Shown here: positions 26,773-40,194 of the stretch, one piece after another | How positions within the stretch are numbered: the stretch's first letter is position 1 | Layout of the letters: each line of letters opens with the position of its first letter | Source: Gammaproteobacteria bacterium | GTDB lineage: Bacteria > Pseudomonadota > Gammaproteobacteria > UBA4575 | DNA length: 64,000 nucleotides | Reading direction: 5' to 3' | Assembly: GCA_965221955.1 (NCBI GenBank) | Contig: CBDCTA010000029.1 | Span: forward strand, 352,001 to 416,000 | Program-made: the position numbers and the translations under genes | The notes under the pieces: model-generated | Seen by the model: the letters and a program-made list of their open reading frames with translations, nothing else | What the model was told of the DNA's origin: nothing | Databases searched by the model: none

Positions 26773-26814
26773 GTATTTCGCCCATAACTCATACAATAAA
26801 TAAAAGAGATTAAA

Positions 26815-27444
26815 ATGGCCTTAGTTGCAAACCGTCGTTCTGGAATGACGTTATTTTCTGATCCATATTGCGCACAGAGCCACCGTACCCGCATTGTTTT
26901 AGCTGAGAAAGACATCACTGTTGATGTGGTGCATATCGATCCAAACAATAAGCCTGAGGATTTATTAGATGTAAATCCATATAACTCAGTACCAACATTA
27001 ATTGATCGTGAACTTGTACTTTATGATGCGCGCGTAATCATGGAATATTTAGATGAGCGTTTTCCGCATCCACCATTGATGCCAGTAGACCCAGTGTCAC
27101 GTTCTAAATCACGTTTAGCCTTATTTCATATTGAAAAAGACTGGTATGTGCCATTAAGTGAAATCAATTCAGCTGATAGCAGTGTGGCCGATAATGCTAA
27201 AAAAGCATTACAAGAAAGCATTCTATCTACGGTTGAAGTGTTCAGCGCTAAACCTTATTTTCTCAGTGATGAATTCAGTTTGGTAGATTGCAGTATTGCG
27301 CCGATCTTATGGAGATTGCCATATTTTGGTATTAAACTCGGTGCCTCCGCGAAACCCATTATGCAATACGCAGAGCGCGTATTTGATCGGCCTTCGTTTA
27401 GAAGCAGCCTTTCTGAAGAAGAAGTCGAAATGTGGCCTGGGTAG
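26815..27444 (+). CDS. sspA: Stringent starvation protein A
   Basis: GST fold; YLDERFPHPPLMPVDP; follows petC. Confidence 0.96.
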   Translation: MALVANRRSGMTLFSDPYCAQSHRTRIVLAEKDITVDVVHIDPNNKPEDLLDVNPYNSVPTLIDRELVLYDARVIMEYLDERFPHPPLMPVDPVSRSKSRLALFHIEKDWYVPLSEINSADSSVADNAKKALQESILSTVEVFSAKPYFLSDEFSLVDCSIAPILWRLPYFGIKLGASAKPIMQYAERVFDRPSFRSSLSEEEVEMWPG

Positions 27445-27507
27445 TCGCATCGAATATTCTGTCAGGATAAAATAGCCTAACTTCCAAATCTTATTGAGCT
27501 ATTCGCA

Positions 27508-27891
27508 ATGACCTCCAGTCGTCCTTATTTGCTACGCGCTATGTACGAATGGATTGTCGATAATGGTATGACACCCTATGTTTTGGTGGATACGCGAAAT
27601 GACCAAGTTATTATTCCGCGCCAATACGAAGAAGATGGCAAAATCGTTTTAAATATTGGGCCCAGTGCTGTGCAATCACTTGATCTTGGTAATCAGGCGT
27701 TAAGTTTTGATGCAAGATTTGATGGTACTGCCATAGATGTATATGTTCCGATGGAATTCATACTCGCAATCTATACGCGTGAAAATGGTCAAGGCATGAT
27801 GTTTGCGGATGAAGATATGCCGCCGCCAGGGGATGATTCAGAACAAGGTTCGGGTAAGCAAAAACAACCTCACCTTCGTGTTGTAAAATGA
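27508..27891 (+). CDS. sspB: ClpXP adaptor SspB
   Basis: [23 protein letters not shown]-terminal LRVVK. Confidence 0.96.
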
Positions 27892-28397
27892 TCAAAGTTT
27901 TACAAGACGACATCACAACCTTAAAAATTGATGCAATCGTTAACGCTGCCAACAACAGTTTGTTGGGTGGCGGTGGAGTAGATGGCGCAATTCATAAAGC
28001 TGCAGGACCTGAACTATTAGAATTCAATAAAACTTTGGGTGGTTGTGAAACGGGTGCTGCTAAAATTTCACCAGGCTTTAAACTCCCTGCAAAGTGGATC
28101 ATTCATACTGTTGGTCCTGTTTGGCAAGGCGGTACTCAAGGAGAGCCTGAATTGCTCGCACAATGCTATCAACAAAGCTTTGAACTTGCGCTCGAAAATC
28201 AAATTAAAACCATTGCTTTTCCCGCAATCAGCACAGGTGTGTATGGCTATCCCAAACAAGCTGCATCTGTAATTGCAATGCAACAATTCCGCAACTACGA
28301 AGATAAATTTGATGAAGTAATTGCGTGTTGTTTTAGCGAAGTGGATGTGGAGATTTATGAGGGGATACTTAACAATAGTTTTAAGGCTGCTGTCTAA
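27888..28397 (+). CDS. Macrodomain O-acetyl-ADP-ribose deacetylase (YmdB/MacroD-like)
   Basis: [33 protein letters not shown]; ATGA overlap with sspB. Confidence 0.93.
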
Positions 28398-28413
28398 ATC
28401 TTAAAAAGATACT

Positions 28414-28443
28414 GTGTCATTACGAGCGCAGCGAAGCAATCTA
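28414..28443. repeat. Solitary REP/RPE-like arm (GTCATTGCGAG...GCAATC family)
   Basis: TGTCATTACGAGCGCAGCGAAGCAATCTA resembles a widespread palindromic repeat family as I recall it; no partner arm seen nearby. Confidence 0.5.
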
Positions 28444-28461
28444 GTCATCATAAGATCCGCC

Positions 28462-29203
28462 TTAGTTTTTTCGCTTAACACCTAGTAACTTTGCGAACCC
28501 CCATTTCCTAAAACCAAGCATCATTGCAACCCCGCTACGCTTGTTTGCAGGAATTTTTAAATCATTGCTAATTAATTGATCAAAGTATCTTGTAACTTCG
28601 TCTAATTTCTCATGCATTTTATGAATTGCTCCGTCAGTAAGCATTCCTCCAACAAAATGAAGTTTCTCATCTTGATGAGAAAATTTTGTTTTCAGAAATT
28701 CAGTTAAAATTTCTTGATTGAAAAACTTTTGTACCGGTCCCATCATCGGACCATTTAAAGTTTCGAGCTGTTAATAAACGTATACGATTAAATGGTAATA
28801 ATTCAATGAGACCTATCTTTTCAAGTTTTATAAAATGCTTATTGAGCTCGGCTTCTGAGAAATCAAACGTATCCTTAATTTCATGCTCCTTCCAATGATT
28901 AAGAACAAGGTAGGTAACTAATAACAACCTATGGTCATTCACAAATTCTTTTTCTTGTTGCAATGTAAGTTGTGTAATCAAAGGTTGTTGCAGCTCAGAG
29001 TCTAAAACGATTTCTTTTATGTCTAAACCTAACCAATTACATAATGTTTCTAGTCGATTTAGTGATAACCCTGCAGTGGAAAATAATCTCCTTATACTGG
29101 GTTCACTGAGGTTCAAAATCTCAGCAGCATCAGCATAGGTCTTACCTTGAGTTCGAATCCGCTTCTTTAGAGCAATGTGAATAGCTTTGCTTTGAACAGC
29201 CAT
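28462..29203 (-). CDS. XRE/Cro-type HTH transcriptional regulator, ~246 aa, split by one frameshift
   Basis: N-terminal HTH (TYADAAEILNLSEPSIRRLF); removing one base from CCC 28739-28741 joins ORFs 28700-29203 and 28462-28746 as ...FKWSDDGPVQKFF... Confidence 0.85.
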
Positions 29204-29205
29204 AA

Positions 29206-29267
29206 TGTATTATATATTGATACAAATATGTCATATATTGCAAATATTTAGATAATAATTGCAAATA
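29206..29267. promoter_or_regulatory. Candidate operator array in the divergent promoter
   Basis: Imperfect palindrome TGTAT-N9-ATACA (29206-29224); ATATATTG at 29212 and 29233; ATTGCAAATA at 29237 and 29258 (21-bp spacing). Confidence 0.45.
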
Positions 29268-29313
29268 ATGAGACAAACCGGAAATATGCTCTCAGATACA
29301 AGGGAGTATTTGC

Positions 29314-30045
29314 ATGAGTCTATTTGTCATTATTGTCTCCATCGGGGTCAGCATGATTATTATCGAGAGATTGTGGCCAAACGCTCTGTTACCCGAAACA
29401 CCTCGCTGGTGGGTAAGAGCCCTTATATTTAATTTTGCCCAAGCACTAATCAGTTTTATCGCTGCAGTTACTTGGGACAAGTGGTTTCCATTTTTTACAT
29501 TGTTTGAAATTGATGCACTTCCTAATGCAATACAAATCCTCATTGGCTACATTACAATTACATTTATCTATTACTGGTGGCATCGTGCGCGACATGAAAT
29601 TCCATTGCTGTGGAATGTGTTCCACCAAATTCATCATAGCCCTGCAAGACTAGAAGTAATCACCAGCTTTTATAAACATCCACTAGAAACATTCGTAAAT
29701 GGATTGTTATCCAGTTGGTTGTTACATAGTTTGTTAGGTGTGACTCCAACCGTTGCAGCCACGGTTGTAATGATCACTGGTCTTGCTGAATTCATTTATC
29801 ACTGGAATATACGCACACCTTACTGGTTAGGGTTTTTGTTTCAGCGTCCAGAAAGTCATCGTGTGCATCATCAACATGGGCTTCATCATTTTAATTATTC
29901 GGATTTACCAATTTGGGACATGTTATTTGGGACATTCAATAATCCTAAATCAACGCCTAAACAAACGGGATTTGAAATTAATGATGAATTACAGCTTAAA
30001 ACCATGTTGCTTGGAAAGTCTGTTGTTAATAGGAGACTAACATGA
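29314..30045 (+). CDS. Sterol desaturase / fatty acid hydroxylase superfamily membrane di-iron enzyme
   Basis: His boxes HRARH, HQIHH, YHWN, HRVHH and WDMLFGT; GGGAG RBS. Confidence 0.92.
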   Translation: MSLFVIIVSIGVSMIIIERLWPNALLPETPRWWVRALIFNFAQALISFIAAVTWDKWFPFFTLFEIDALPNAIQILIGYITITFIYYWWHRARHEIPLLWNVFHQIHHSPARLEVITSFYKHPLETFVNGLLSSWLLHSLLGVTPTVAATVVMITGLAEFIYHWNIRTPYWLGFLFQRPESHRVHHQHGLHHFNYSDLPIWDMLFGTFNNPKSTPKQTGFEINDELQLKTMLLGKSVVNRRLT

Positions 30046-30530
30046 AACATAAAATAATATTTTTATTCTTAATATTTATAGGCAGTGTACGTGCAGTTGC
30101 TGATATCGGTGGGTATTCAAATGTATCTTCGTTTTTCTCATTATTTAATGCATCACCTGCAATGAAAGTGTTCACGGCACATAATAATTATGAGACTTTT
30201 TCACCAATTTTTATGCTCGATTTTCATGGAGACAATGGTAGTTCGACATCTATTGAATTAACACCAGAACTCTATAGAAAATTAGAAGGCCCTTATAATC
30301 GAAGAAACATATTTGGTGCAGCCATTTCCTATGGTCCAGTACTTGTGAGCAATCAAAATACAGCGGATTTATTTTACAGTGTTGTGCAGTATAGTTTTTG
30401 TAAACCAGGGAGACTGATTAATGAATTAGAAATTAATGTACTTGATGACGTGCGCAAAGTTACGGTTCGTTATCTACATCAGGAAAATGTAAATACTGAT
30501 TATCCCTGTTCAATTGGAGGTGGACTGTGA
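30042..30530 (+). CDS. Hypothetical exported or membrane-anchored protein
   Basis: Hydrophobic N-terminus; ATGA and GTGA overlaps couple it to both neighbours. Confidence 0.8.
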   Translation: MKHKIIFLFLIFIGSVRAVADIGGYSNVSSFFSLFNASPAMKVFTAHNNYETFSPIFMLDFHGDNGSSTSIELTPELYRKLEGPYNRRNIFGAAISYGPVLVSNQNTADLFYSVVQYSFCKPGRLINELEINVLDDVRKVTVRYLHQENVNTDYPCSIGGGL

Positions 30531-31766
30531 ATAACTCTAACTGGACTGCCGGTATGTTCGCAATTTTTAGAGTTCTACTAGGATTGTATTTAATTGTGCA
30601 TTTTTTACATTTGGTACCGTGGGGTACAGAAGTATTTGGGGACAATGGAACGCTATATAGTTCATCAGTTAGTCCACTCATGGGCATCATGCCAAACCCG
30701 CTTAACATATTAGGAGAGAGTTACTTCATAAGTTTATTACTTTTGATTGGTGCAATAAGTGGAACACTAATTGTATTAGGTAAGTGGGACCGCATAGGAG
30801 CTGCCATATCAATGGTTGTATTAGCATGGCTCTATCAACGCAATCCTTTGATTGCAAATCCTTCATTACCCTTACTTGGTTGGATGTTGCTTGCTTATTG
30901 CATTATTCCTTTAGGTGGAATTGGCCGGGCATTTACTAAAAATGGAGATACGACTGATTTTAACTGGCGATTGCCGGGCTCTGCATGGTGGGCAGCATGG
31001 ATCGTATTGGGTGTAGCTTATACATATAGTGGATATACTAAGTTATTAAGTCCGTCGTGGGTGGACGGTTCTGCTATAAGCATTGTTCTAGAGAATCCAT
31101 TAGCAAGAGACTATTTTCTAAACAGTTTTTCTTTTATCGTTAGACCCGTGGTTTTTAAAAGGACTTACCTGGGCAATTACATGGATTGAACTATTATTTC
31201 TTCCTCTAATTGCTTTTAAGTCAACACGCTTTATTGTATGGGCATTGATGTTGATTGTGCAGTTTGGCTTTCTTTTCTTACTTAACTTTGCAGATTTAAC
31301 ATTTCCAATGTTGCTTATCCATTTATTGCTCTTTGACCCTCAGTGGATTACACCAAAGCCGAATAAAAAAGAAACGATTTTCTATGATGGAAATTGTGCA
31401 TTGTGTCATTCTGTTGTACGTCTTGCATTGTCTGAAATGCCCAAAGAACGATATATTTTTTCACCGCTTCAAAGTAAAACGTTTGAAAATGCAATTCCGG
31501 AAAATGTGCGTGCACAGTTACCCGATTCCTTTCTCGTGCTTACAAGTGACAATAAAGTGAAAGTCGAATGTGATGCAGTTTTGCACGTGCTTCGAAGCTT
31601 TGGGGGACTTTGGTACTTATTAGGAACAGCTTTGAGCATTTTACCTAAAGCGTTATTAAATTTCGGATACCGGTTTGTTGCGAAAGTAAGATACCGGCTA
31701 TTTGGTATTAAAAGTAATTTGTGCCCGATAGTACCAACTGAATTCCGAAAATTATTTGTAAGTTGA
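30527..31766 (+). CDS. HTTM (vitamin K-dependent carboxylase-like) membrane domain fused to DCC1-like (DUF393) thiol-disulfide oxidoreductase, ~412 aa, one frameshift
   Basis: FRVLLG start, YTYSGYTKLLSPSWVDG, ELLF, then YDGNCALC and FVAKVRYRLFG; removing one T from run 31126-31130 joins ORFs 30527-31189 and 31245-31766. Confidence 0.8.
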
Positions 31767-31770
31767 AATT

Positions 31771-32217
31771 ATGAGTAACAGTAGTAAATACGCAAAAGTT
31801 CTTTGGGTATTGCTTGGACTTTTCTGTTTCCGTGTGATTGCTCAATTATTGCAATTGGTATTTGATAGTCCATTTTTGCCTCCGTTTGACACTTGGTATA
31901 GTGGAGCGTTGGCCTATCCGTATTTGCTGGTATCTCAGATACTAATCATCAGTATTTATTCATATATCTGTTTTCAATTTACCAAAGGTTCCGTCACGCC
32001 ATCTAATCGCATGGGTATACTTTTCTTAGCCATAGGGGGCGTTTATGCAAGCTTTATGCTGGGAAGATTGTTGATTGGTCAGCTATTTACTTCTTCTACA
32101 TGGTTTCATGCTTACATTCCCATTTTCTTTCACTTTATTCTTGCACTATTCCTAATTGTGGTTGGGATATTTCATGTTAGAAATACAAAGATATATGTCA
32201 ATCGAAGCAGTAAATAA
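31771..32217 (+). CDS. Hypothetical membrane protein (~4 TM)
   Basis: Four hydrophobic segments; 4 bp from the upstream stop; overlaps the next gene. Confidence 0.8.
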   Translation: MSNSSKYAKVLWVLLGLFCFRVIAQLLQLVFDSPFLPPFDTWYSGALAYPYLLVSQILIISIYSYICFQFTKGSVTPSNRMGILFLAIGGVYASFMLGRLLIGQLFTSSTWFHAYIPIFFHFILALFLIVVGIFHVRNTKIYVNRSSK

Positions 32218-34783
32218 ATGGTTGTCGTGGGTTGTATACCCAGTTGGCGTTGGGATGGGAATCTATTTGCATATAGCTATGCAGTCATGGGGCATTGATC
32301 TTCAAATTAGCACATACGTTCCCATATTTCTTGCAGCTGGAATGATCGTGTTGTTTGAGCTTTATTTTCCACATTTGCATCAATGGAAACCCAATATTAA
32401 AGATATAAAAAATGATGCAATGTACATGCTTGTTGTACAAACGATTTTGCCAAAAGTATTAGCATTTATTACAGCATTAGTACTGTTACGCTATTCAAAT
32501 GAAAGTGGTTTATTAAATATAAACCTTTGGCCACATTACTTACCTGTATGGATTCAGGCAATGCTAATGATTTTAGTAGCTGATTTTTTCCGTTATTGGC
32601 TTCATGTTGCTTCTCATAAAAATAGTTTCTTATGGAGATTTCATGCAGTTCATCATTCACCTAAAAAATTGTATTGGATAAACACAGGAAGATTTCACCC
32701 TATTGAAGAAGTTGCTCAGTTTTTATTCGATGCAGTACCTTTCATTCTATTAGGAGTCAGTGAATATGTTCTGGCATTTTATTTTGTTTTCTATGCCATT
32801 AATGGTTTTTTTCAGCATTCCAATATAAAACTAAAGTTTGGTGTATTGAATTATTTAATTAGTACTGCAGAACTACACCGTTGGCATCATTCACGTCTTG
32901 AGAAAGAATCTAATTCTAACTATGGAAATAACACAATTATTTGGGATCTAATCTTTGGCACGAGATACTTGCCAGATGATAGAAGCATCGAAAAAATAGG
33001 GCTCATCAATTCTAAATACCCAGCAACATTTTTCGATCAACTTAAAACACCATTTGTTGGAGGGTTAGATAAAAAGAATTTGCCATTACCTAGCATTAAA
33101 CAGTTAATTGTGAATAGTTTAATCAAGCTTCAAATGAATATTACCAAATTTACTATTTGGAAACCCATGATGAAGGCAGCTAAAGATCCTATGCATGCGC
33201 AATTTAGTTTCCTTGAACAACTCTTGAAAGAAAATGCAAAGACAAAATTTGGAAAAGAACATCAATTTAATAAAATAAATTCTTATGAAGATTATTGTAG
33301 GCTTGTGCCAATTCAAACATATGAGACATTAAGCCCATATTTTATAAACCAAGATAAATTAAAAGAAATTTTGATAAATAATGAGCAACCGTTTATGTAT
33401 GCAGTTACAAGCGGGACTACAGGAGCATCAAAATTTATCCCGATTTTAGATAAAACAATTAAACAAAATAAAAAGCATCAAAAACTTTTTACCTATATTC
33501 AATATAGAGATAATCCTGGAACATTCAGCGGCAAAATGCTTGGAATCGTAAGCCCTGCAATTGAAGGATATACAGACCACGGCACTCCATTTGGCTCAGT
33601 ATCTGGTGTTCTGTATAAAAACATGCCTTCAATTATGAGATCAAAATATGTACTTCCATTTGAAATATTTTCAATTGAAAACTATGAACTTAAATATCAA
33701 CTCATCCTAAGAATTGCCCTTGCTTACAAAGATATCACCTATTTTGTTACAGCAAATCCTTCAACTTTACTAATGCTTAACAAAATACTAAATGAGGATA
33801 TTTCTGTATTGGCAAATGAAATTGAGCACGGAGGATTTAGAGAATACGAAGTATTGCCAAAGAGTATCCAAACGTTTATTACACATAATTTGCACTCAAA
33901 TCCAAAACGTGCAAATGAGCTACGTCAACTAATATCGAATAAAAAAGAAATCACCTTTGCAGATGTATGGCCACAATTACAAACAGTTGTTACATGGACT
34001 GGCGGTAGTTGTGGAATCGCAATAGATGCAGTCAAGCAAAAATTACCGATTGTTACAAAAGTAATCGAACTAGGGTATATGGCTACTGAAGTGAGAGGGA
34101 CAATAACAATTGATGCAGAAAATAATCTTGGTCTTCCTACAATTCAGGATAATTTCTTTGAATTTGTTGAAAGAGATGATTGGGAAAACGAAAAAAATAA
34201 TTTCTTAACAATTGATCAACTATCTAATAGCAAAGAATACTATATTTTCATTACAACAAGCTCTGGCCTTTATCGATATTACATCAACGACATAGTAAGA
34301 GTAAATGGAAAAATAGAAAATACTCCTACTCTTCAATTTATACAAAAAGGAAAAGGTGTAACCAGTATTACAGGCGAAAAGTTATATGAATGCCAAATTA
34401 TTGATGCGATGAAGTTAACGGAAAAAGAATTTAATTTCTCAAGTATTTTTTACATTATGCTTGCCAATAAAATTCACTCAAATTATGAATTATATATTGA
34501 AACCCCCGGAAATTTTGAACCCCCATTAGAAACATTAAGAGACTATATTGAGTCTTGTCTTTGTAAGCTAAATATCGAATATCAAAGTAAACTTGCAAGC
34601 GGGAGACTAAAGCCTCTGTCTTTGCATCATGTTCAAAGTGGAACAAGGGAAATATTTAAGAAATATTATATTGGAAAAGGGCAAAAAGAGAGTCAATTTA
34701 AAGTTGTGGCACTTCAGTACAAGAACGAATTAGATTTTGACTTTGATAATTACATTTTAGGATATTATGAAAAGGCGAGTTAA
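32195..34783 (+). CDS. Sterol desaturase/fatty acid hydroxylase domain fused to a GH3-family acyl-acid amido synthetase domain
   Basis: His boxes HVASH, HAVHH, QHSN, HRWHH, WDLIFGT; GH3 motifs TSGTTGASKFIP, GYMATE, GLYRYYIND, GEK; one uninterrupted ORF; start taken at ATG 32195. Confidence 0.88.
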   Translation: MSIEAVNKWLSWVVYPVGVGMGIYLHIAMQSWGIDLQISTYVPIFLAAGMIVLFELYFPHLHQWKPNIKDIKNDAMYMLVVQTILPKVLAFITALVLLRYSNESGLLNINLWPHYLPVWIQAMLMILVADFFRYWLHVASHKNSFLWRFHAVHHSPKKLYWINTGRFHPIEEVAQFLFDAVPFILLGVSEYVLAFYFVFYAINGFFQHSNIKLKFGVLNYLISTAELHRWHHSRLEKESNSNYGNNTIIWDLIFGTRYLPDDRSIEKIGLINSKYPATFFDQLKTPFVGGLDKKNLPLPSIKQLIVNSLIKLQMNITKFTIWKPMMKAAKDPMHAQFSFLEQLLKENAKTKFGKEHQFNKINSYEDYCRLVPIQTYETLSPYFINQDKLKEILINNEQPFMYAVTSGTTGASKFIPILDKTIKQNKKHQKLFTYIQYRDNPGTFSGKMLGIVSPAIEGYTDHGTPFGSVSGVLYKNMPSIMRSKYVLPFEIFSIENYELKYQLILRIALAYKDITYFVTANPSTLLMLNKILNEDISVLANEIEHGGFREYEVLPKSIQTFITHNLHSNPKRANELRQLISNKKEITFADVWPQLQTVVTWTGGSCGIAIDAVKQKLPIVTKVIELGYMATEVRGTITIDAENNLGLPTIQDNFFEFVERDDWENEKNNFLTIDQLSNSKEYYIFITTSSGLYRYYINDIVRVNGKIENTPTLQFIQKGKGVTSITGEKLYECQIIDAMKLTEKEFNFSSIFYIMLANKIHSNYELYIETPGNFEPPLETLRDYIESCLCKLNIEYQSKLASGRLKPLSLHHVQSGTREIFKKYYIGKGQKESQFKVVALQYKNELDFDFDNYILGYYEKAS

Positions 34784-34791
34784 CTACAATC

Positions 34792-35922
34792 ATGTTGATT
34801 GAAAACGCTAAGCTAAAAAAAATAGATATTCCTTTTACAGTCTCATTTAAGCACTCATCTGCCGAACGATCACGAACGGAGAGTGTTCTCGTAGAGATGA
34901 CATCCAATAGCGGATATTCTGGCTATGGAGAATCATGCCCAAGAGAATATGTAACATCAGAAAATATTGAAAGTGTGAAAGTATTTTTTAATGAGAATAT
35001 TCTCTCTTTCAAAAATAATGTAGATGACTTAGATAGCCTTAATACTTGGATGGGCAACAATCTTAAAAGTATTAACCTTAACCCTGCTGCAATGTGTGCA
35101 ATTGAAACAGCATTTTTAGATTTGCTTTCAAAAAATAAGGATATATCAATTGAAAGTTTAATTGGGGTGCCTGAACTACAAGGCCAATTTAAATATACAG
35201 CAGTTATTGGAGACAGTAGTTCAGAAGTATTTCATAGCACTCTTAAAAAATATATTGAAATGGGCTTTGATGATTACAAAGTTAAGCTCTCAGGTGACTT
35301 AGAGAAGGATCAAGAAAAATGTCATATATTAATTAATATGTGTAAATTTCCTTTTCGTTTACGTTTCGATGCTAATAACTCATGGAATAACCATGAAACT
35401 GCAATTAAATACTTATCTAAATTAGATATAGATTATTTTGCAATTGAAGAACCTCTTACACCAAAGGACTATCTAGGTTTATCCAAACTCTCGAATGAGC
35501 TAGATAAACAAATCATATTAGATGAAAGTTTTTTGAATCTAGGTCAATTCGAGAACCTCATCGAATATCCTGAAATAATGTGGATAATAAATCTTCGAAT
35601 ATCAAAAATGGGTGGCTTATTAAGGTCAAAAAAGATTGTTGATAAAGCAAAAGCTCATGGAATTAAGATAATTATTGGTGCTCAAGTAGGGGAAACAAGT
35701 CTTCTTTCTAGAGCTGCTTTGACGATTGCAAACTACGCAAGGGATATGCTCATTGCTCAAGAAGGTGCTTTTGGGAAACTTTTGCTTAAAGAGGACGTCT
35801 TTGAGCCTACTTTGCAGTTCGGGAAAGCTGGACTTTTAGACCCTGCAAAGTTATTTAATGGTATATCTGGTTTAGGTTTTGAGAATGTATTAAATAAAAA
35901 ATTTATCAAAGAATACTTATAA
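34792..35922 (+). CDS. Enolase-superfamily enzyme (muconate lactonizing enzyme subgroup)
   Basis: GYGE capping domain, KVK, DAN, EEP, DES metal ligands, NLRISKMGG. Confidence 0.88.
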   Translation: MLIENAKLKKIDIPFTVSFKHSSAERSRTESVLVEMTSNSGYSGYGESCPREYVTSENIESVKVFFNENILSFKNNVDDLDSLNTWMGNNLKSINLNPAAMCAIETAFLDLLSKNKDISIESLIGVPELQGQFKYTAVIGDSSSEVFHSTLKKYIEMGFDDYKVKLSGDLEKDQEKCHILINMCKFPFRLRFDANNSWNNHETAIKYLSKLDIDYFAIEEPLTPKDYLGLSKLSNELDKQIILDESFLNLGQFENLIEYPEIMWIINLRISKMGGLLRSKKIVDKAKAHGIKIIIGAQVGETSLLSRAALTIANYARDMLIAQEGAFGKLLLKEDVFEPTLQFGKAGLLDPAKLFNGISGLGFENVLNKKFIKEYL

Positions 35923-37296
35923 ATTTGGTAACGTTTTCCCAGGATTAAGGATGTTATTGGGGTCAAATTGTTTTTTGATTTTGTGCATTAATGCAAGTGT
36001 GGTTGCGTCAATTTCTTTAGATACAAAATCGCGTTTTGCAATGCCCACTCCGTGTTCGCCTGAGAGAGTGCCGCCCAGTTGTAATACCAATTCAAATACT
36101 TCATTCAAGCAGGACTTAACTACAGAGTCTTGTTTAGTGGCATCATATAAAAGATTGACATGTAAATTACCATTGCCGGCATGACCAAAATTAAAAATTG
36201 CGATATCATTTTTTTTGCTTAGTTTTTCTATCTCGGTTAATAGCTTAGGTAATTGTGTAACGGGAACAACAATATCTTCATTAATTTTATTCGGTGCAAA
36301 ACTACGAAGGGCAGGGGAAAGTGCTTTGCGAGCAGCCCATAGTTGGATTTTTTGTTGGTCGTTTTCTGCAGTTTGAATATCAATACAGCCGCTATTTTTT
36401 GCTGCGTCTAAAACAGCTTGCGTGCTCGCTTCAATATTTTCGTTTAACCCATCGATTTCAATCATTAGCATCGCTTGGGCTTGAGAATCTAACTCAAGGT
36501 TTGAATGTTGACGAATTAAATTGAGTGAGCCTGAATCAATAAATTCTAATGCATACGGTAGAGCATTTTGTGCTAATACACTCACTACTGCTTCAATTGC
36601 AGAATTTGAATTCTTGTAAAGTGTGCGAATGGTATTAATACATTCCGGTTTTGGGTGGAGTTTTAAACGTGCTTCAGTAATGACGCCTAAAATACCTTCA
36701 CTACCAATAAGTAAACGCGTCAAGTCTAAACCGACTACGCCCTTGGTGGTTGCGCTGCCGGTATGAATAGTTTCGCCGGTTCCTGTCACTGCAGTAAGGC
36801 TTAATGTATTTTCTCTGCAGGTTCCGTACTTGATTGCACGTGGGCCAGCCGTATTGCAAGCAAGATTGCCGCCAATGCTGCAATAGTCTGCGCTACTGGG
36901 GTCGGGCGGCCAAAATAGATTATTTTCTGCTGCACGTTTTTGTACTTCTATATTTAAGACACCTGGTTCAACGCGCATATTTCGATTATTCACATCAAAT
37001 TCTAAAATTTGATTCATGCGTTCGGTTGAAAGCACAACACCGGCTTGGATAGGTATTGCAGCACCGGTTGTACCGGTTCCACGTCCACGCGTTGTGATTG
37101 GAATATTATTTTCGTTGCACAGTTCAACACTATTCACGATTTGCTCGTGAGTGGTTGGAAGTAAAACTAAATCAGGACAAGCGTGTTGTTTGCTATTGTC
37201 ATAGCCATACGGCCAACACTCGCCTTGATCAGTAAGTACCGAATTTCTTCCACAAGCCTCAATAAACTTGTTTATGATGTGAGTTTCTAAAGCCAC
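35917..37296 (-). CDS. FAD-linked oxidase, GlcD/D-2-hydroxyacid dehydrogenase family
   Basis: RGRGTG, PPDPSS, GSEGILG, GHAGNGNLH, SGEHGVG, LNPGK. Confidence 0.92.
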   Translation of the reverse strand: MALETHIINKFIEACGRNSVLTDQGECWPYGYDNSKQHACPDLVLLPTTHEQIVNSVELCNENNIPITTRGRGTGTTGAAIPIQAGVVLSTERMNQILEFDVNNRNMRVEPGVLNIEVQKRAAENNLFWPPDPSSADYCSIGGNLACNTAGPRAIKYGTCRENTLSLTAVTGTGETIHTGSATTKGVVGLDLTRLLIGSEGILGVITEARLKLHPKPECINTIRTLYKNSNSAIEAVVSVLAQNALPYALEFIDSGSLNLIRQHSNLELDSQAQAMLMIEIDGLNENIEASTQAVLDAAKNSGCIDIQTAENDQQKIQLWAARKALSPALRSFAPNKINEDIVVPVTQLPKLLTEIEKLSKKNDIAIFNFGHAGNGNLHVNLLYDATKQDSVVKSCLNEVFELVLQLGGTLSGEHGVGIAKRDFVSKEIDATTLALMHKIKKQFDPNNILNPGKTLPNL

Positions 37297-37310
37297 GTTT
37301 TGGAAAACGC

Positions 37311-38256
<946 letters not shown>

Positions 38257-38262
38257 GTGGTA

Positions 38263-40194
38263 TTACTGAGTTGCGTTCAGTTGAGCGGAGTAATCAGGTA
38301 TAGCACCTAGTGATTCTGGTCGACCTTTTTTGAATTTTGCCCATACTAATTCACGATAGATACGATTTTGTGCATCCACGCTTAATTTTCCTGTAGTGCC
38401 ATCATAACGATCAAAGTCATTCGCAGCTAAGCGTTGTAGATGGGGGATCACTTGATAAGCATCGATTCCTAGTGCAGCAAAACGTGGTAAGCGAGAAGAG
38501 CTGCTAGAGGATTGTAAATCTAGTGAATCTTTTAATAATGCCATTGAAGGGTCGTTTGATAACAGCCAAGGTACATCGCAATAAGTGATGCCATTAATAT
38601 CTTGGTCTGCTGATAGATTTTCATTGCCAGAAAATACATGGGACGTGGCATATACTGGAAGATCCGATGCAAAGTGAAAACTCAGTTGTGGTCGAAGCAG
38701 TCTAGCTTGCTGGGGTGATGCGGCAATAAATACGAAATCAGCATCTTGTCTGCGGCGGGGTTCAAATTCTACTTCTGCTTTGATGATAGATTGCAAGGTG
38801 CGGCGGCGTTGTTCGCTTTGGTTGAGTTGTAGCAAGCTTTTTATCGCCACGGAGTAATCTGAGTTTTGCGGGAAATAACGTTCTGCTTGCAAAACAGAGC
38901 CACCTAATTCAAGAAAGCGATTCGTAAAAGCGGATAATAAACGTGTGCCCCATTCCCCTTCAGGTACGAGTACTAATGCAGCGCTTTTATTTTCAAAAGA
39001 CGCACGTTCAGCAACTTGCTGCGCTTCATCTTCGGGCAATAAACCAAATTGATATAAATTATTAGCACCTGTTAATGCATTATCAGAATAATTTAGTGAC
39101 AAAGTGGGTACTGGCAGAGTGCCTTGGCTGGCTAAACTGCGCACCGCGTCTTTTTGAAATGGACCAATGATGAAGTCTGCACCCTCTGAAACAGCGCGGC
39201 GGTAGTAACTCAGTGCAGAAGTTGGATCATCACCCGTATCGTAAACAACAAGTTCGGGCGGTGGATTAAAGGCTTCGCCAAATTCGCGTGCAGTTGTGAT
39301 GCCAGAATAAACCGCTTCAGCCACTTTGCTGTAGCGACCGGTTAACGGCAGTAATAATGCAATTTTGTTTGGGGCGATATGAAAAGAGGCATAATCTTCG
39401 TGAATTGAATCAATAATGTGATTAGGAATTCGGTGTCCAGAAAATCGTAGCCTCCATTGTTGAATAGCGTTATCGATAGAGGCTTGACTTGCATGTGGTT
39501 GCTTTTGGATTGCTACTAAGCTAAGCCACGCTGCAAGTTCGGGGTTATTATTGTTGGTTGACCACGTATTTAATTCTTCAACATTTGTATTGAGCATGGT
39601 TTGCCAGATGAGCTCATTATTTTTTTTCAACTGCGCAGGTTTTTTTAATAAATTATTTAATGCAATGCGTGTTTCGATGGATTGTTTTGTTTTGCCAGCA
39701 CTATTTAGAGCTTTTGCGCGCACGGCAAATAAGTGCGGATTATATTTTTCAGATAAATTAATTAATTTTTCAGGTGCAGCATCCAATGCAACTTGTGGTT
39801 GTCCATTTAATAAGGCTAGTTCTGCGCTCGCGACACGTTTGCGTACAAATAAATCTTGCGTAAGTGTGCTTTCATCAATAGCACTTAAATATTGTTGGGC
39901 TTGCAGTTTGGTTGTGGGTTGTAATACCGCTTCAGCGGCTCTAATTTGTAAGGCTTCTTTTTGTGGCGATGGTCGATTTTCGGCTTCTGCCCAAAAAATA
40001 GCAGCTGCTTCTTGATATTTGCCTGCATTGAGTAGTCTTTCAGCTTTGCGAGTTTGGGCGCTGCCAGTGTTAAATACTTTGCTAGTATCGAGTGGAAAGT
40101 CAGCGCAACTTGTTAGTATCAACAGGGTAATAAAACTTATGACTACCCATGTTAGTGTATGTTTAGTTGAATATTGCAGTTGATTACTTCGCAT
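38263..40194 (-). CDS. lpoA: Penicillin-binding protein activator LpoA (LppC family lipoprotein)
   Basis: Lipobox LTSC, IALLLPLTG, FGLLPEDEA, RRRQD, ALGIDAY. Confidence 0.92.
   Translation of the reverse strand: MRSNQLQYSTKHTLTWVVISFITLLILTSCADFPLDTSKVFNTGSAQTRKAERLLNAGKYQEAAAIFWAEAENRPSPQKEALQIRAAEAVLQPTTKLQAQQYLSAIDESTLTQDLFVRKRVASAELALLNGQPQVALDAAPEKLINLSEKYNPHLFAVRAKALNSAGKTKQSIETRIALNNLLKKPAQLKKNNELIWQTMLNTNVEELNTWSTNNNNPELAAWLSLVAIQKQPHASQASIDNAIQQWRLRFSGHRIPNHIIDSIHEDYASFHIAPNKIALLLPLTGRYSKVAEAVYSGITTAREFGEAFNPPPELVVYDTGDDPTSALSYYRRAVSEGADFIIGPFQKDAVRSLASQGTLPVPTLSLNYSDNALTGANNLYQFGLLPEDEAQQVAERASFENKSAALVLVPEGEWGTRLLSAFTNRFLELGGSVLQAERYFPQNSDYSVAIKSLLQLNQSEQRRRTLQSIIKAEVEFEPRRRQDADFVFIAASPQQARLLRPQLSFHFASDLPVYATSHVFSGNENLSADQDINGITYCDVPWLLSNDPSMALLKDSLDLQSSSSSSRLPRFAALGIDAYQVIPHLQRLAANDFDRYDGTTGKLSVDAQNRIYRELVWAKFKKGRPESLGAIPDYSAQLNATQ

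What the first reader, a model, noticed from the sequence alone, without database searches (positions are those of the whole stretch)
28462..35922. Candidate undescribed regulated lipid/acyl-amide tailoring operon: two di-iron desaturases, GH3, HTTM-DCC1 and an enolase-family enzyme
Seen: six co-directional genes with overlaps or gaps of 8 bp or less, a divergent regulator, visibly AT-richer DNA, and a location inside the otherwise conserved sspB-to-diaA/lpoA neighbourhood. Established: fatty acid hydroxylase-family enzymes oxidise lipids; GH3 enzymes adenylate carboxylic acids and amidate them with amino acids; HTTM domains are related to vitamin K-dependent carboxylases; MLE-subgroup enolases abstract alpha-protons from carboxylates. 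Inference: together they make or modify a membrane-associated acyl-amide (signal or lipoamino acid), or detoxify an environmental lipid. There is no PKS, NRPS or ACP gene, so rule-based cluster miners could miss it. I recall no characterised pathway with this gene set.
Basis: partly seen in the sequence, partly recalled or inferred. Interest (0 to 1): 0.88.

Follow-up and report, generated by a model that had tools for sequence, protein, structure and literature searches.

The report
Two-module lipoamino-acid gene island
A horizontally acquired block of genes joins a widespread but uncharacterised enzyme set, which probably makes a modified fatty-acid-amino-acid lipid, to a separate bacterial look-alike of the vitamin K-dependent carboxylase; the product of neither is known.

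Summary
Six co-directional, tightly packed genes and a divergent HTH regulator form an AT-rich 7.6-kb island (window 28362-35926) between the sspA/sspB/macro-domain genes and the glcD-like/gmhA(diaA)/yraN/lpoA genes.

It is two independent modules, not one six-gene unit.

- **Core (31771-35922):** a 4-TM protein, an OlsE-like di-iron hydroxylase fused to an OlsH-like GH3 amido synthetase, and an MLE-subgroup enolase. The enolase is adjacent in 47 of 50 evaluable loci from many phyla. Its strand-6 catalytic Lys is always Arg.
- **Accessory trio (29314-31766):** a second hydroxylase, a 162-aa anchored protein, and an HTTM::DCC1 protein whose model matches human GGCX (Z 17.9). The trio occurs alone in another genome and is missing from a same-genus copy of the core.

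The closest characterised system is the OlsH/OlsI ornithine-lipid pathway (2025), with OlsE. Equivalog scores are not met, and the searches listed in the full report found no paper describing this module.

The most likely product is a hydroxylated, further modified N-acyl amino acid.

The three apparent frameshifts are homopolymer differences. They are absent from a relative and from independent contigs.

This scan had already flagged the hydroxylase-GH3-enolase trio in two other genomes.

The parts
28362..35926 (.). Whole inserted island, AT-rich. Homology to the empty sites of relatives stops at 28361 and resumes at 35927.
   Evidence: in G014 the two flanks lie 128 bp apart, while its own island copy (86% identical) sits elsewhere on the contig. 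G001 also carries its copy at a third site.
28462..29203 (-). Divergent transcription regulator with an N-terminal Cro/C1-type HTH_26 domain and an uncharacterised C-terminal part. It reads as two ORFs (28700-29203 and 28462-28746) because of one extra base near 28738/9.
   Evidence: Pfam HTH_26, E 5e-5. Whole 246-248-aa orthologues exist in G001 and G014. The indel was located. An X1 contig lacks the extra base. Regulator homologues lie beside the core in 5 of 81 loci and in G330.
29228..29256 (+). Promoter-like site in the 110-bp divergent intergenic region (29204-29313).
   Evidence: consensus match only. The same scan found 0 terminator-like sites across 28300-36100, against 4.4 +/- 1.8 in shuffles.
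29314..30045 (+). FAH1, a membrane di-iron FA_hydroxylase-family enzyme. First gene of the accessory trio.
   Evidence: Pfam PF04116, E 6.9e-27. It scores only 62.6 bits on the OlsE model. It is 55% identical and syntenic in G327. Seven representatives carry this family fused to the orf162 family.
30042..30530 (+). orf162, an N-terminal membrane anchor or signal followed by a ~140-aa domain of no known family. Its C-terminus is affected by a 1-base CCC-run difference at 30504.
   Evidence: No Pfam or NCBIfam hit. 316 representative homologues at E<=1e-3. Conserved P39, E51, R88 and a GPYNRRN motif. The hydropathy plot shows one N-terminal segment. X1 and X3 contigs lack one base at 30504.
30527..31766 (+). 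HTTM-like (GGCX-fold) membrane domain fused to a DCC1-like CxxC thiol-disulfide oxidoreductase domain. It reads as two ORFs (30527-31189 and 31245-31766) because of one extra T in a T5 run at 31126.
   Evidence: DCC1-like PF04134, E 4e-18. The gene is a single 412-aa ORF in G014. An X1 contig lacks the extra T. The AF2 model has pLDDT 89.1. All 15 top Foldseek hits are human GGCX. VIA Z is 17.9 with 269 aligned residues.
31771..32217 (+). TM148, a four-helix membrane protein of no known family. First gene of the conserved core.
   Evidence: Found beside the fusion gene in 44 of 69 loci with enough upstream DNA. It is fused N-terminally to the hydroxylase::GH3 protein in P0074 and P0107. Invariant residues: F18, R21, Q25, L52, Q56, Y92, M96, R99, F120, H121, L124. 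The model has pLDDT 94.4, with no specific fold match.
32195..34783 (+). OlsE-like di-iron hydroxylase domain (about residues 20-301 of the 875-aa ORF) fused to an OlsH-like GH3 acyl-acid amido synthetase (about residues 318-875). The ORF opens at TTG 32156; orthologues start at the ATG at 32195.
   Evidence: Pfam FA_hydroxylase plus GH3 N/M/C domains. NCBIfam OlsE 182.2 bits and OlsH 113.6 bits. All of the best 120 homologues have the same fusion architecture. The histidines and the three GH3 nucleotide motifs are invariant.
34792..35922 (+). MLE-subgroup enolase-superfamily enzyme with K163-x-K165, D193, E219, D244, and Arg269 where the family has its strand-6 catalytic Lys.
   Evidence: Pfam MR_MLE_C/N. 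The best solved relatives are dipeptide epimerases 3r0k, 1jpm and 3jva. Arg269 is present in 48 of 48 linked orthologues and in 120 of 120 best homologues. The gene is adjacent to the GH3 gene in 47 of 50 loci.

Best explanation
The block is a mobile genomic island built from two separate gene modules under one divergent HTH regulator.

**Core module (TM148, hydroxylase::GH3, enolase)**
This is a self-contained, widely distributed pathway for a modified N-acyl amino acid, that is, a lipoamino acid. The proposed steps are all inferred.
1. The cytoplasmic GH3 domain adenylates a free fatty acid with ATP and amidates it with an amino acid. This is what OlsH does with ornithine.
2. The fused membrane di-iron domain, whose closest model is OlsE, hydroxylates the product at the membrane. 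TM148 probably acts as its membrane subunit.
3. The enolase-family enzyme binds the free alpha-carboxylate of the head group through Mg2+ and removes the alpha-proton.
4. The second base of racemases (the strand-6 Lys) is always Arg here. I therefore favour one-base chemistry, namely elimination of the newly introduced hydroxyl to give a dehydro-amino-acid head group, over simple epimerisation.

**Accessory trio (FAH1, orf162, HTTM::DCC1)**
This is a two-part bacterial relative of the vitamin K-dependent carboxylase with its own hydroxylase. In this genus it has been inserted between the regulator and the core, so the two are probably co-expressed. Whether it acts on the core's product is open; I put that at about one in three.

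**What is shown and what is not**
Shown: the domain identities, motifs, fold, gene linkage, fusions and mobility. Inferred: every chemical step, the amino acid used and the product.
For: **Families**
- The best NCBIfam models for the fusion are OlsE (182.2 bits, covering model positions 3-284 of 293) and OlsH (113.6 bits).

**Active sites conserved in 29 diverse fusions**
- Histidines H150, H154, H163, H166, H167, H241, H244 and H245 are invariant.
- The three GH3 nucleotide motifs are present as TSGTTGASK, GYMATE and GLYRYYIND. The motifs are as defined in PMC12493201, section 6.

**Biochemical precedent**
- OlsH makes N-acyl ornithine from free fatty acid, ATP and Mg2+ (PMC12493201, sections 4 and 9).
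- OlsE hydroxylates C4 of the ornithine head group (passages of PMC12971839).

**Linkage of the core**
- The enolase is present in 47 of 50 evaluable loci and TM148 in 44 of 69.
- In 44 loci the enolase directly follows the GH3 gene, with a median of 25 nt between the tblastn hit ends. In 7 loci the enolase hit starts before the end of the GH3 hit, five of them in the order hydroxylase-enolase-GH3.
- The flanks of these loci are otherwise diverse.
- The core is also found in G330 and G266.

**Fusions**
- Hydroxylase::GH3 in all of the best 120 homologues.
- TM148::hydroxylase::GH3 in P0074 and P0107.
- FAH1::orf162 in 7 representatives.

**Enolase**
- KxK and D/E/D align with the B. subtilis YkfB residues, but Arg269 aligns with K268.
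- The Arg is invariant in 48 of 48 and 120 of 120 sequences.

**Independence of the two modules**
- G001 has the core without the trio.
- G327 has the trio in the same order at 55/36/40% identity. It is not among the GH3 matches.

**HTTM fold:**

**Island**
- Three genomes carry it at three different sites, and an empty site exists.
- An integrase lies beside the G014 copy.

**Alternative route not found**
- No PF13444 (OlsB/OlsF-type) N-acyltransferase was found in this 96.6%-complete genome, while the control genomes gave hits.
Against: - No product, substrate or transcript has been seen. No RNA run was listed.
- The OlsH and OlsE equivalog cut-offs are missed by a wide margin (113.6 against 620; 182.2 against 475). 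Head group and regiochemistry therefore cannot be transferred from those enzymes.
- OlsE hydroxylates C4, which is not beta to the carboxylate. The proposed hydroxylation-elimination needs a different regiochemistry, and nothing here shows it.
- An invariant Lys (K272) lies three residues after Arg269 and might serve as a displaced second base. Epimerisation is therefore not excluded.
- There is no O-acyltransferase (OlsI or OlsA type) in the window. The CocE/NonD hydrolase that follows the regulator in G001 and G014 was not found in this genome.
- Joint transcription of the two modules rests only on gene spacing and on the absence of terminator-like sites.
Confidence: 0.6

Rival explanations
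1. All six genes form one pathway. The GGCX-like HTTM::DCC1/orf162 pair and FAH1 tailor the lipoamino acid made by the core. This could be quinone- and O2-driven carboxylation or oxidation of the head group, with the CxxC domain recycling the cofactor as VKOR does for vitamin K epoxide.
For: - The genes have the same orientation, with 4-nt overlaps or gaps. No terminator-like site lies between the trio and the core.
- The same arrangement is kept in G014 at 86% identity.
- A bacterial HTTM enzyme, MloH, carboxylates a small-molecule aspartyl residue. This is cited in bioRxiv 10.64898/2026.08.19.745780, of which I saw passages only.
Against: - The trio is missing from the G001 copy of the core and from 80 of 81 other loci.
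- The trio stands alone in G327.
- In GGCX the active site faces away from the cytoplasm (recalled, not from a call). The GH3 and His-box sites need cytoplasmic ATP and reductant.
Confidence: 0.3
2. It is simply a hydroxylated ornithine-lipid pathway. The GH3 domain would be an OlsH orthologue and the hydroxylase an OlsE orthologue, so the set would already be characterised.
For: - OlsE and OlsH are the best NCBIfam models.
- No OlsB/OlsF-type N-acyltransferase was found in the genome.
Against: - Both scores are far below the equivalog cut-offs.
- No OlsI-type O-acyltransferase or OlsG is in the island.
- An invariantly linked enolase-family enzyme and TM148 have no counterpart in the OlsH/OlsG/OlsI operon.
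- The OlsH authors themselves expect homologues outside planctomycetes to use other amino acids.
Confidence: 0.12
3. It is a salvage or detoxification system for environmental free fatty acids or N-acyl amino acids. Toxic free fatty acids would be conjugated, oxidised and then hydrolysed, rather than used to build a membrane lipid or signal.
For: - The block is a regulated, mobile, patchily distributed accessory island. It is present in 3 of 15 same-genus genomes and carries a dedicated regulator.
- A CocE/NonD hydrolase sits beside the core in 9 of 81 loci, and downstream of the regulator in G001 and G014.
Against: - ATP-dependent amide synthesis followed by hydrolysis would be futile.
- The hydrolase is absent from most loci and from this genome.
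- Fusion of the synthetase to a membrane hydroxylase fits product tailoring better.
Confidence: 0.1

Closest known systems
OlsH/OlsG/OlsI ornithine-lipid pathway of Singulisphaera acidiphila (PMC12493201, 2025; sections 4, 6, 8 and 9 read)
   Same: Both have a GH3-family enzyme with the three nucleotide-binding motifs. OlsH forms an N-acyl amino acid directly from free fatty acid and ATP, without CoA or ACP. Both are operon-encoded together with head-group tailoring.
   Different: - Here the GH3 is fused to a membrane hydroxylase and scores 113.6 bits against the 620-bit equivalog cut-off.
- There is no OlsI alpha/beta-hydrolase O-acyltransferase and no OlsG methyltransferase.
- An enolase-family enzyme and a 4-TM protein are constant partners instead.
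- The amino acid used is unknown.
OlsE, the ornithine-lipid head-group C4 hydroxylase of Rhizobium tropici (review PMC12971839, passages only)
   Same: Both are di-iron His-box FA_hydroxylase-family membrane enzymes. The OlsE model aligns over almost its whole length with the N-terminal domain of the fusion (E 1.4e-53).
   Different: The score is 182.2 bits against a 475-bit cut-off. The domain here is fused to the synthetase, and its regiochemistry is unknown. The second copy, FAH1, scores only 62.6 bits.
Dipeptide epimerases and N-succinyl/N-acyl amino acid racemases of the MLE subgroup (YkfB 1jpm, 3r0k, 3jva, 2p88, NAAAR 1sja)
   Same: These are the best solved relatives (E 2e-26 to 1e-10). 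The KxK motif and the three metal ligands align. These enzymes act on the alpha-carbon of an amino acid whose amine is acylated, which is what a GH3 product would be.
   Different: The strand-6 catalytic Lys (YkfB K268; its role is recalled from the literature) is Arg in every member examined. A classical two-base racemase mechanism is therefore not expected. No NCBIfam equivalog cut-off is reached; the best is menC_lowGC at 119.5 bits against 200.65.
Human vitamin K-dependent gamma-carboxylase (GGCX), bacterial DUF5819 + HTTM::DCC1-like pairs (bioRxiv 10.64898/2026.08.19.745780, passages only) and SdpA/SdpB
   Same: The N-terminal ~280 residues of the DCC1-fused protein share the GGCX membrane fold (Z 17.9). 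A small N-terminally anchored protein is encoded just upstream, as in the DUF5819 and SdpA pairs.
   Different: - There is no sequence-level match to HTTM for this protein, nor to GGCX for the family profile.
- orf162 matches neither DUF5819 nor SdpA by HMM.
- A di-iron hydroxylase is a third constant member and is sometimes fused to orf162.
- Substrate and cofactor are unknown.
NasY pathway to N-acyl 2,3-dehydrotyrosines: thalassotalic acids, stieleriacines (PMC12479983, abstract only)
   Same: It shows that marine bacteria make long-chain N-acyl amino acids with a dehydro-amino-acid head group. That is the kind of product my favoured enolase step would give.
   Different: The enzymes are entirely different: NasY synthase, an adenylyltransferase/cyclase and a nitroreductase. 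It is a precedent for the chemistry only.

Membership tests
GH3 acyl-acid amido synthetases | GH3 N-terminal, central and C-terminal domains above Pfam gathering scores | tested here: met
   PF03321 188.6 bits, PF23571 67.2 bits and PF23572 53.0 bits, each against a 23.6-bit cut-off.
GH3 acyl-acid amido synthetases | Three nucleotide-binding motifs (SSGTSxGxxK, YGSSE, GLYRYRLGD, as given in PMC12493201 section 6) | tested here: met
   T418-S-G-T-T-G-A-S-K426, G640-Y-M-A-T-E645 and G704-L-Y-R-Y-Y-I-N-D712. The key positions are invariant in 29 fusions.
OlsH (lyso-ornithine lipid synthetase, NF052613 equivalog) | Score at or above the curated equivalog cut-off (620 bits) | tested here: not met
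   113.6 bits, two stretches.
OlsH (lyso-ornithine lipid synthetase, NF052613 equivalog) | Operon partner OlsI (alpha/beta-hydrolase O-acyltransferase), and ornithine as substrate | not testable with these tools
   There is no alpha/beta-hydrolase gene in the island. The CocE/NonD hydrolase of G001 and G014 could not be compared with OlsI because no OlsI sequence was in hand. Substrate identity needs an assay.
OlsE (ornithine lipid hydroxylase, NF052566 equivalog) | Score at or above the curated equivalog cut-off (475 bits) | tested here: not met
   Fusion N-terminal domain 182.2 bits; FAH1 62.6 bits.
FA_hydroxylase (di-iron His-box) superfamily | Pfam PF04116 above cut-off, and the conserved HxxxH / HxxHH / HxxHH histidines | tested here: met
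   109.8 and 94.9 bits against a 31-bit cut-off. H150, H154, H163, H166, H167, H241, H244 and H245 are invariant.
MLE subgroup of the enolase superfamily | MR_MLE N- and C-terminal domains; KxK at strand 2; Asp/Glu/Asp metal ligands | tested here: met
   PF13378 91.3 bits and PF02746 24.6 bits. K163/K165, D193, E219 and D244 align with YkfB K160/K162, D191, E219 and D244 and are present in 48 of 48 sequences.
MLE subgroup of the enolase superfamily | Catalytic Lys at the end of strand 6 (the second acid/base of racemases and epimerases) | tested here: not met
   Arg269 aligns with YkfB K268. Arg is present in 48 of 48 linked orthologues and 120 of 120 best homologues.
HTTM / vitamin K-dependent carboxylase-like membrane domain | Pfam PF05090 match | tested here: not met
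   No hit even at E<=10 for the window or G014 protein; only a weak DoxX match. Eight of 40 aligned homologues match, best E 6.6e-7, but 5 of those 8 were picked because they carried the hit.
HTTM / vitamin K-dependent carboxylase-like membrane domain | GGCX membrane-domain fold | tested here: met
   The model has pLDDT 89.1. The Foldseek top 15 are all GGCX, E 7e-7 to 8e-5, and the next unrelated hit has E 0.09. VIA gives 16 GGCX chains at Z 11.5-17.9, with 269 residues aligned to GGCX 54-329; the next hit is Z 7.0.
HTTM / vitamin K-dependent carboxylase-like membrane domain | Catalytic Lys equivalent to GGCX K218 | tested here: inconclusive
   K172 is invariant in 40 homologues. No residue-level alignment to GGCX could be obtained: the family profile against PDB sequences gave 0 hits at E<=1.
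DCC1-like thiol-disulfide oxidoreductases | Pfam PF04134 and the CxxC motif | tested here: met
   67 bits against a 27.8-bit cut-off. All 40 homologues match. C290 and C293 are invariant.
DUF5819 / SdpA accessory partners of HTTM proteins | Match to PF19136 or PF17418 | tested here: not met
   orf162 and 18 stand-alone homologues gave no Pfam hit. Neither family hits the orf162 locus in G000, G014 or G327 at E<=10. Only a language-model lead exists: clusters with SdpA in 11% of members at 0.91, and DUF5819 in 42% at 0.84.
Genomic island (horizontally acquired block) | Empty site in relatives, different insertion sites, deviant composition, mobility gene | tested here: met
   Empty site and three different locations. 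Borders. GC 0.346 against 0.408. A tyrosine integrase lies beside the G014 copy only. There is no integrase or tRNA at the window copy.

The most novel reading that the evidence does not exclude
In this genus a bacterial vitamin K-carboxylase-like enzyme has been recruited to a lipid pathway. The enzyme is the HTTM::DCC1 protein with its orf162 partner and a dedicated di-iron hydroxylase. It would carboxylate or oxidise the amino-acid head group of a GH3-made lipoamino acid, whose alpha-carbon is activated by an Arg-variant enolase. The product would be a carboxylated or dehydro-amino-acid membrane lipid or signal. That would be the first lipid substrate for an HTTM enzyme and the first assigned reaction for the Arg-type enolase family.
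Probability: 0.12. Interest if true: 0.85.

Novelty: new variant of a known kind. Interest (0 to 1): 0.62.

Why it matters
**Scale of the family**
- The fused hydroxylase::GH3 protein has at least 1315 homologues at E<=1e-10.
- Source names span Bacteroidota, Balneolales-type, Gemmatimonadota, Latescibacteria, Myxococcota and Gammaproteobacteria.
- Rule-based cluster miners would not flag the module, and I found no paper on it.

**What an assignment would give**
- If the module makes a lipoamino acid, a common class of bacterial membrane lipid or signal is missing from lipid maps.
- The OlsH assay format (cell extract, free fatty acid, ATP, labelled amino acids) makes the question directly testable.
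- The enolase partner, with Arg in place of a catalytic Lys, would add a new reaction type to a well-studied superfamily.

**What this window adds**
- A fourth constant member, TM148.
- The regulator.
- Proof that the module is mobile.
- A natural junction with a GGCX-like module whose bacterial function is an open question.

Tried and rejected
**Expression**
- No RNA holder was listed for the stretch, so co-transcription could not be tested.

**Protein complex**
- Complex prediction (HTTM::DCC1 alignment A2 with orf162 alignment A3) was never accepted because the queue was full. Calls: 72, 77, 80, 83, 85, 91, 97, 102, 105, 107-110, 114, 117, 119, 122, 126, 128. No result exists.

**Same-contig check**
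I wanted to check whether P0122, P0015 and P0410 lie on one 8372-base contig. The equal contig lengths remain only a hint that the two modules are joined in a more distant relative.

**TM148**
- The fold search over 48,161 chains gave a best Z of 7.1, which is within noise for helical bundles.
- The Atlas gave only unnamed clusters.

**HTTM and orf162 by sequence**
- HTTM::DCC1 family profile against PDB sequences: 0 hits.
- Direct Pfam HTTM: no hit.
- DUF5819 and SdpA HMMs: no hit on orf162.

**Wider scans for HTTM::DCC1**
- Class sample: 3 of 400 genomes.
- Phylum sample: 1 of 401, the genome itself.

**Further conserved neighbours of the core**
- Clustering of 662 ORFs from 83 loci gave only the hydroxylase/GH3 and enolase families as widely recurrent. 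Small genes such as TM148 were partly lost by my greedy ORF choice.

**Missing partners in this genome**
- The CocE/NonD hydrolase was not found with the G014 query.

**Island borders**
- No target-site duplication or att-like repeat was evident where homology to the empty sites stops. No repeat search was run there.

**Simple racemase reading of the enolase**
- Considered and down-weighted because of Arg269.

**Literature searches**
- OlsH; ornithine lipid.
- GH3; N-acyl amino acid; fatty acid hydroxylase; mandelate racemase; gene cluster. 13 papers, none relevant by title or abstract.
- HTTM; DCC; thiol-disulfide oxidoreductase; bacteria.
- Gretchen Hagen 3; bacterial; aminolipid; lipoamino acid; sterol desaturase; enolase superfamily.
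- 0 occurrences of 'fusion' or 'racemase' in the main text of the review, and 0 of 'fused', 'fusion', 'hydroxylase', 'enolase' or 'racemase' in the main text of the OlsH paper.
- Supplements of these papers were not opened.

Full report
**What is there**

ORF listing and family scans show a divergent regulator and six co-directional genes.

| Coordinates | Strand | Gene |
|---|---|---|
| 28462-29203 | - | HTH_26 regulator |
| 29314-30045 | + | FAH1 (FA_hydroxylase) |
| 30042-30530 | + | orf162 (no family; one N-terminal hydrophobic segment) |
| 30527-31766 | + | membrane domain fused to a DCC1-like CxxC domain |
| 31771-32217 | + | TM148 (four helices, no family) |
| 32195-34783 | + | FA_hydroxylase fused to a complete GH3 enzyme |
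| 34792-35922 | + | MR_MLE enolase-superfamily enzyme |

- Junctions are overlaps of 4, 4 and 23 nt and gaps of 4 and 8 nt.
- No terminator-like site lies anywhere in 28300-36100, against 4.4 +/- 1.8 expected from shuffles. One promoter-like site lies in the divergent spacer. These are consensus matches only.
- Flanks: on the left petABC, sspA, sspB and a macro-domain deacetylase; on the right a glcD-like oxidase, gmhA/diaA, yraN and LppC/LpoA.
- GC is 0.346 inside against 0.408 outside.

**The frameshifts are probably not real**

- Against the same-genus genome G014, the window has one extra T in a T5 run at 31126. This splits the HTTM::DCC1 gene.
- It has one extra base near 28738/9, which splits the regulator.
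- Both genes are single ORFs in G014 (412 and 248 aa). The regulator is also whole in G001 (246 aa).
- Contigs of public run X1, 99% or more alike, lack one base at 28739, 30504 (a CCC run near the end of orf162) and 31126. An X3 contig also lacks the base at 30504.
- Caveats: each difference rests on one contig at depth 3.5-4.4, and X1 may be the sample of origin.
- All three sites are homopolymers, and each shorter version restores the frame seen in relatives. I read them as assembly errors or rare strain variants.

**It is an island**

A DNA search with window 26800-38300 in five same-genus genomes gave the following.

| Genome | Distance between the two flanks | Island copy |
|---|---|---|
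| G014 | 128 bp | elsewhere on the contig, 86% identical |
| G011 | 533 bp | no island match |
| G001 | 776 bp | at a third location, 81-82% identical, core and regulator only |
| G010 | 2643 bp | no island match |
| G013 | 3310 bp | no island match |

- Homology to the empty sites stops at 28361 and resumes at 35927.
- The full-length fusion gene is present in 3 of 15 genomes of the genus.
- A tyrosine integrase lies directly after the enolase gene in G014.

**Two modules, not one operon-sized unit**

- tblastn of all island proteins shows that G001 has regulator, TM148, fusion and enolase. It has no FAH1, orf162 or HTTM::DCC1.
- G014 has all of them.
- G327, a gammaproteobacterium from another family, has FAH1 (55%), orf162 (36%) and HTTM::DCC1 (40%) adjacent in the same order. 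It is not among the GH3 matches of the class-wide scan.
- Among 80 metagenome loci and one MAG locus fetched with the fusion protein, only one (L022) has a DCC1-like hit. That hit is weak and lies 5 kb away.

**The core is conserved and widespread**

- Of 8000 candidates scored, 1315 proteins match the fusion at E<=1e-10. The best 120 all carry FA_hydroxylase plus GH3. Source names range from Cytophagaceae, Chryseolinea and Gracilimonas to Latescibacteria, Gemmatimonadetes, Myxococcota and Gammaproteobacteria.
- In the 81 loci, the enolase is present in 47 of the 50 that have a complete GH3 end and at least 600 bp downstream. The misses are L018, L031 and L034.
- TM148 is present in 44 of the 69 loci with at least 500 bp upstream.
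- A CocE/NonD (S15) hydrolase is present in 9 of 81 loci, and the regulator in 5 of 81.
- GH3 and enolase are directly adjacent in 44 loci, with a median of 25 nt between hit ends. In 7 loci the enolase hit starts before the end of the GH3 hit. Five of these (L064, L077, L078, L084, L091) have the order hydroxylase-enolase-GH3.
- In some loci the hydroxylase and GH3 are separate genes, for example L002.
- P0074 and P0107 are TM148::hydroxylase::GH3 triple fusions, 45% identical to TM148, E 9e-35 and 3e-31.
- G330 keeps the divergent regulator with the core. G266 keeps the core.
- Beyond these genes the flanks are diverse.
- In a tree of 29 fusions, the window groups with G001 (100/100). It sits inside the branch that holds the rows labelled Gammaproteobacteria or Pseudomonadota. 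The root is midpoint only.

**What the core proteins look like**

*Fusion protein*
- NCBIfam's best models are OlsE (182.2 bits, nearly full model length) and OlsH (113.6 bits). Both are far below the equivalog cut-offs of 475 and 620.
- The eight His-box histidines and the three GH3 nucleotide motifs are invariant in 29 diverse fusions. The motifs are as defined in section 6 of PMC12493201.

*Enolase*
- Its best solved relatives are dipeptide epimerases and N-succinyl/N-acyl amino acid racemases: 3r0k, 1jpm, 3jva, 2p88 and 1sja.
- In the printed alignment to B. subtilis YkfB, K163/K165, D193, E219 and D244 match K160/K162, D191, E219 and D244.
- Arg269 matches K268. The roles of these YkfB residues are recalled from the literature.
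- Arg269, followed by S271 and K272, is present in 48 of 48 linked orthologues and in 120 of 120 best database homologues.

*TM148*
- It models confidently as a four-helix bundle (pLDDT 94.4).
- It has no specific structural or family match.

**How the core most likely works**

Every step below is inferred.

1. By analogy with OlsH, the GH3 domain adenylates a fatty acid and amidates it with an amino acid. OlsH was shown experimentally to make N-acyl ornithine from free fatty acid, ATP and Mg2+.
2. The fused OlsE-like domain hydroxylates the product in the membrane. OlsE hydroxylates C4 of the ornithine head group. TM148 probably acts as its partner.
3. The enolase removes the alpha-proton of the head-group carboxylate.
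4. The usual second base is Arg, so I favour one-base chemistry, that is, elimination giving a dehydro-amino-acid head group. Epimerisation through K272 is not excluded.

Further context:
- N-acyl 2,3-dehydrotyrosines from marine bacteria show that such products exist. They are made by unrelated enzymes (PMC12479983, abstract).
- The genome has no detectable PF13444 N-acyltransferase. The GH3 route may therefore be its only route to aminolipids.

**The accessory trio**

- Pfam does not call HTTM on this protein.
- Of 40 aligned homologues, 8 match PF05090. Five of these were chosen because they carried the hit.
- The AF2 model (pLDDT 89.1) matches human GGCX and nothing else:
  - The Foldseek top 15 are all GGCX.
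  - VIA gives Z 17.9 with 269 residues aligned to GGCX 54-329. The next unrelated chain has Z 7.0.
  - The C-terminal part resembles thioredoxin/GST-like folds only weakly (Z 4-5).
- orf162 has 316 representative homologues. Seven of the 150 listed are longer proteins, and all seven carry an N-terminal FA_hydroxylase. FAH1 and orf162 are therefore functionally tied.
- A 2026 preprint predicts that DUF5819 proteins bind adjacent HTTM::DCC1-like proteins to rebuild a GGCX-like whole. It cites MloH as a bacterial HTTM carboxylase acting on a small molecule (passages only).
- orf162 has the same position and shape as those partners. It matches neither DUF5819 nor SdpA by HMM. Only a language-model lead links them.

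**Comparison with what is known, and novelty**

- The nearest characterised system is OlsH/OlsG/OlsI, with OlsE as a separate tailoring enzyme.
- This module works like that system, but it fails both equivalog tests and has different constant partners.
- My searches found no paper describing the module (term searches inside two papers). Supplements were not opened.
- This scan had already noted the hydroxylase-GH3-enolase trio in two other genomes (e1-2815155 and e1-3588958). It had also noted DUF5819+HTTM::DCC1 cassettes (e1-2241905 and e1-1928708). My tests agree with those notes.
- New here: TM148 as a fourth member with fusion evidence; the regulator; the Arg269 signature counted on 168 sequences; the FAH1::orf162 fusions; the mobility of the island; and the junction of the two modules.

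**Verdict**

The feature is real. It is a new variant of a known kind: GH3/OlsE-type lipoamino-acid synthesis with an unprecedented enolase partner. It sits on a composite mobile island, and no product has been demonstrated.

Noticed in passing
L013 265-3478 (G014:C2, about 141.3-144.5 kb): A tight array of 24 tRNA genes on one strand. It covers most amino acids and includes three tRNA-Arg and four tRNA-Leu genes. It lies about 0.5 kb from the left end of the G014 copy of the island, and an integrase lies at the island's right end. It looks like a tRNA-array mobile element.
   Followed up: no
window 28362-28461 and 35923-35927; G010:C1:2447984-2450627; G013:C2:134728-138038: The junction between the macro-domain gene and the glcD-like gene is a variable spot in the genus. 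G010 and G013 carry other inserts there, of about 2.6 and 3.3 kb, which I did not examine.
   Followed up: no
window 28739, 30504, 31126: All three frame-breaking differences from relatives or independent contigs are single extra bases in homopolymer runs. The assembly may carry similar errors in other genes of the window.
   Followed up: partly
L064, L077, L078, L084, L091: A sub-family of the core has the gene order hydroxylase-enolase-GH3. Its GH3 and enolase are only about 30% identical to the window's. It may be a second specificity class.
   Followed up: no
G000 C22:266353-267003, C20:8337-8984, C29:94593-95297, and relatives: This family of genomes is rich in stand-alone FA_hydroxylase paralogues. 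23 of 24 same-family genomes have matches, and G010 and G019 have six each. One G000 copy contains an in-frame TAG.
   Followed up: no
L013 4644-6359 (-) and L001 6867-8582 (-): A 571-aa CocE/NonD (S15) hydrolase overlaps the 3' end of the regulator gene by 4 nt in G014 and G001. It lies next to the core in 9 of 81 loci. It is missing from the window's copy of the island and was not found elsewhere in this genome.
   Followed up: partly
L002 8051-9304 (-) and 9348-10403 (+): A cytochrome P450 gene and a DUF2914 gene lie 2-3 kb downstream of the core in this MAG contig.
   Followed up: no
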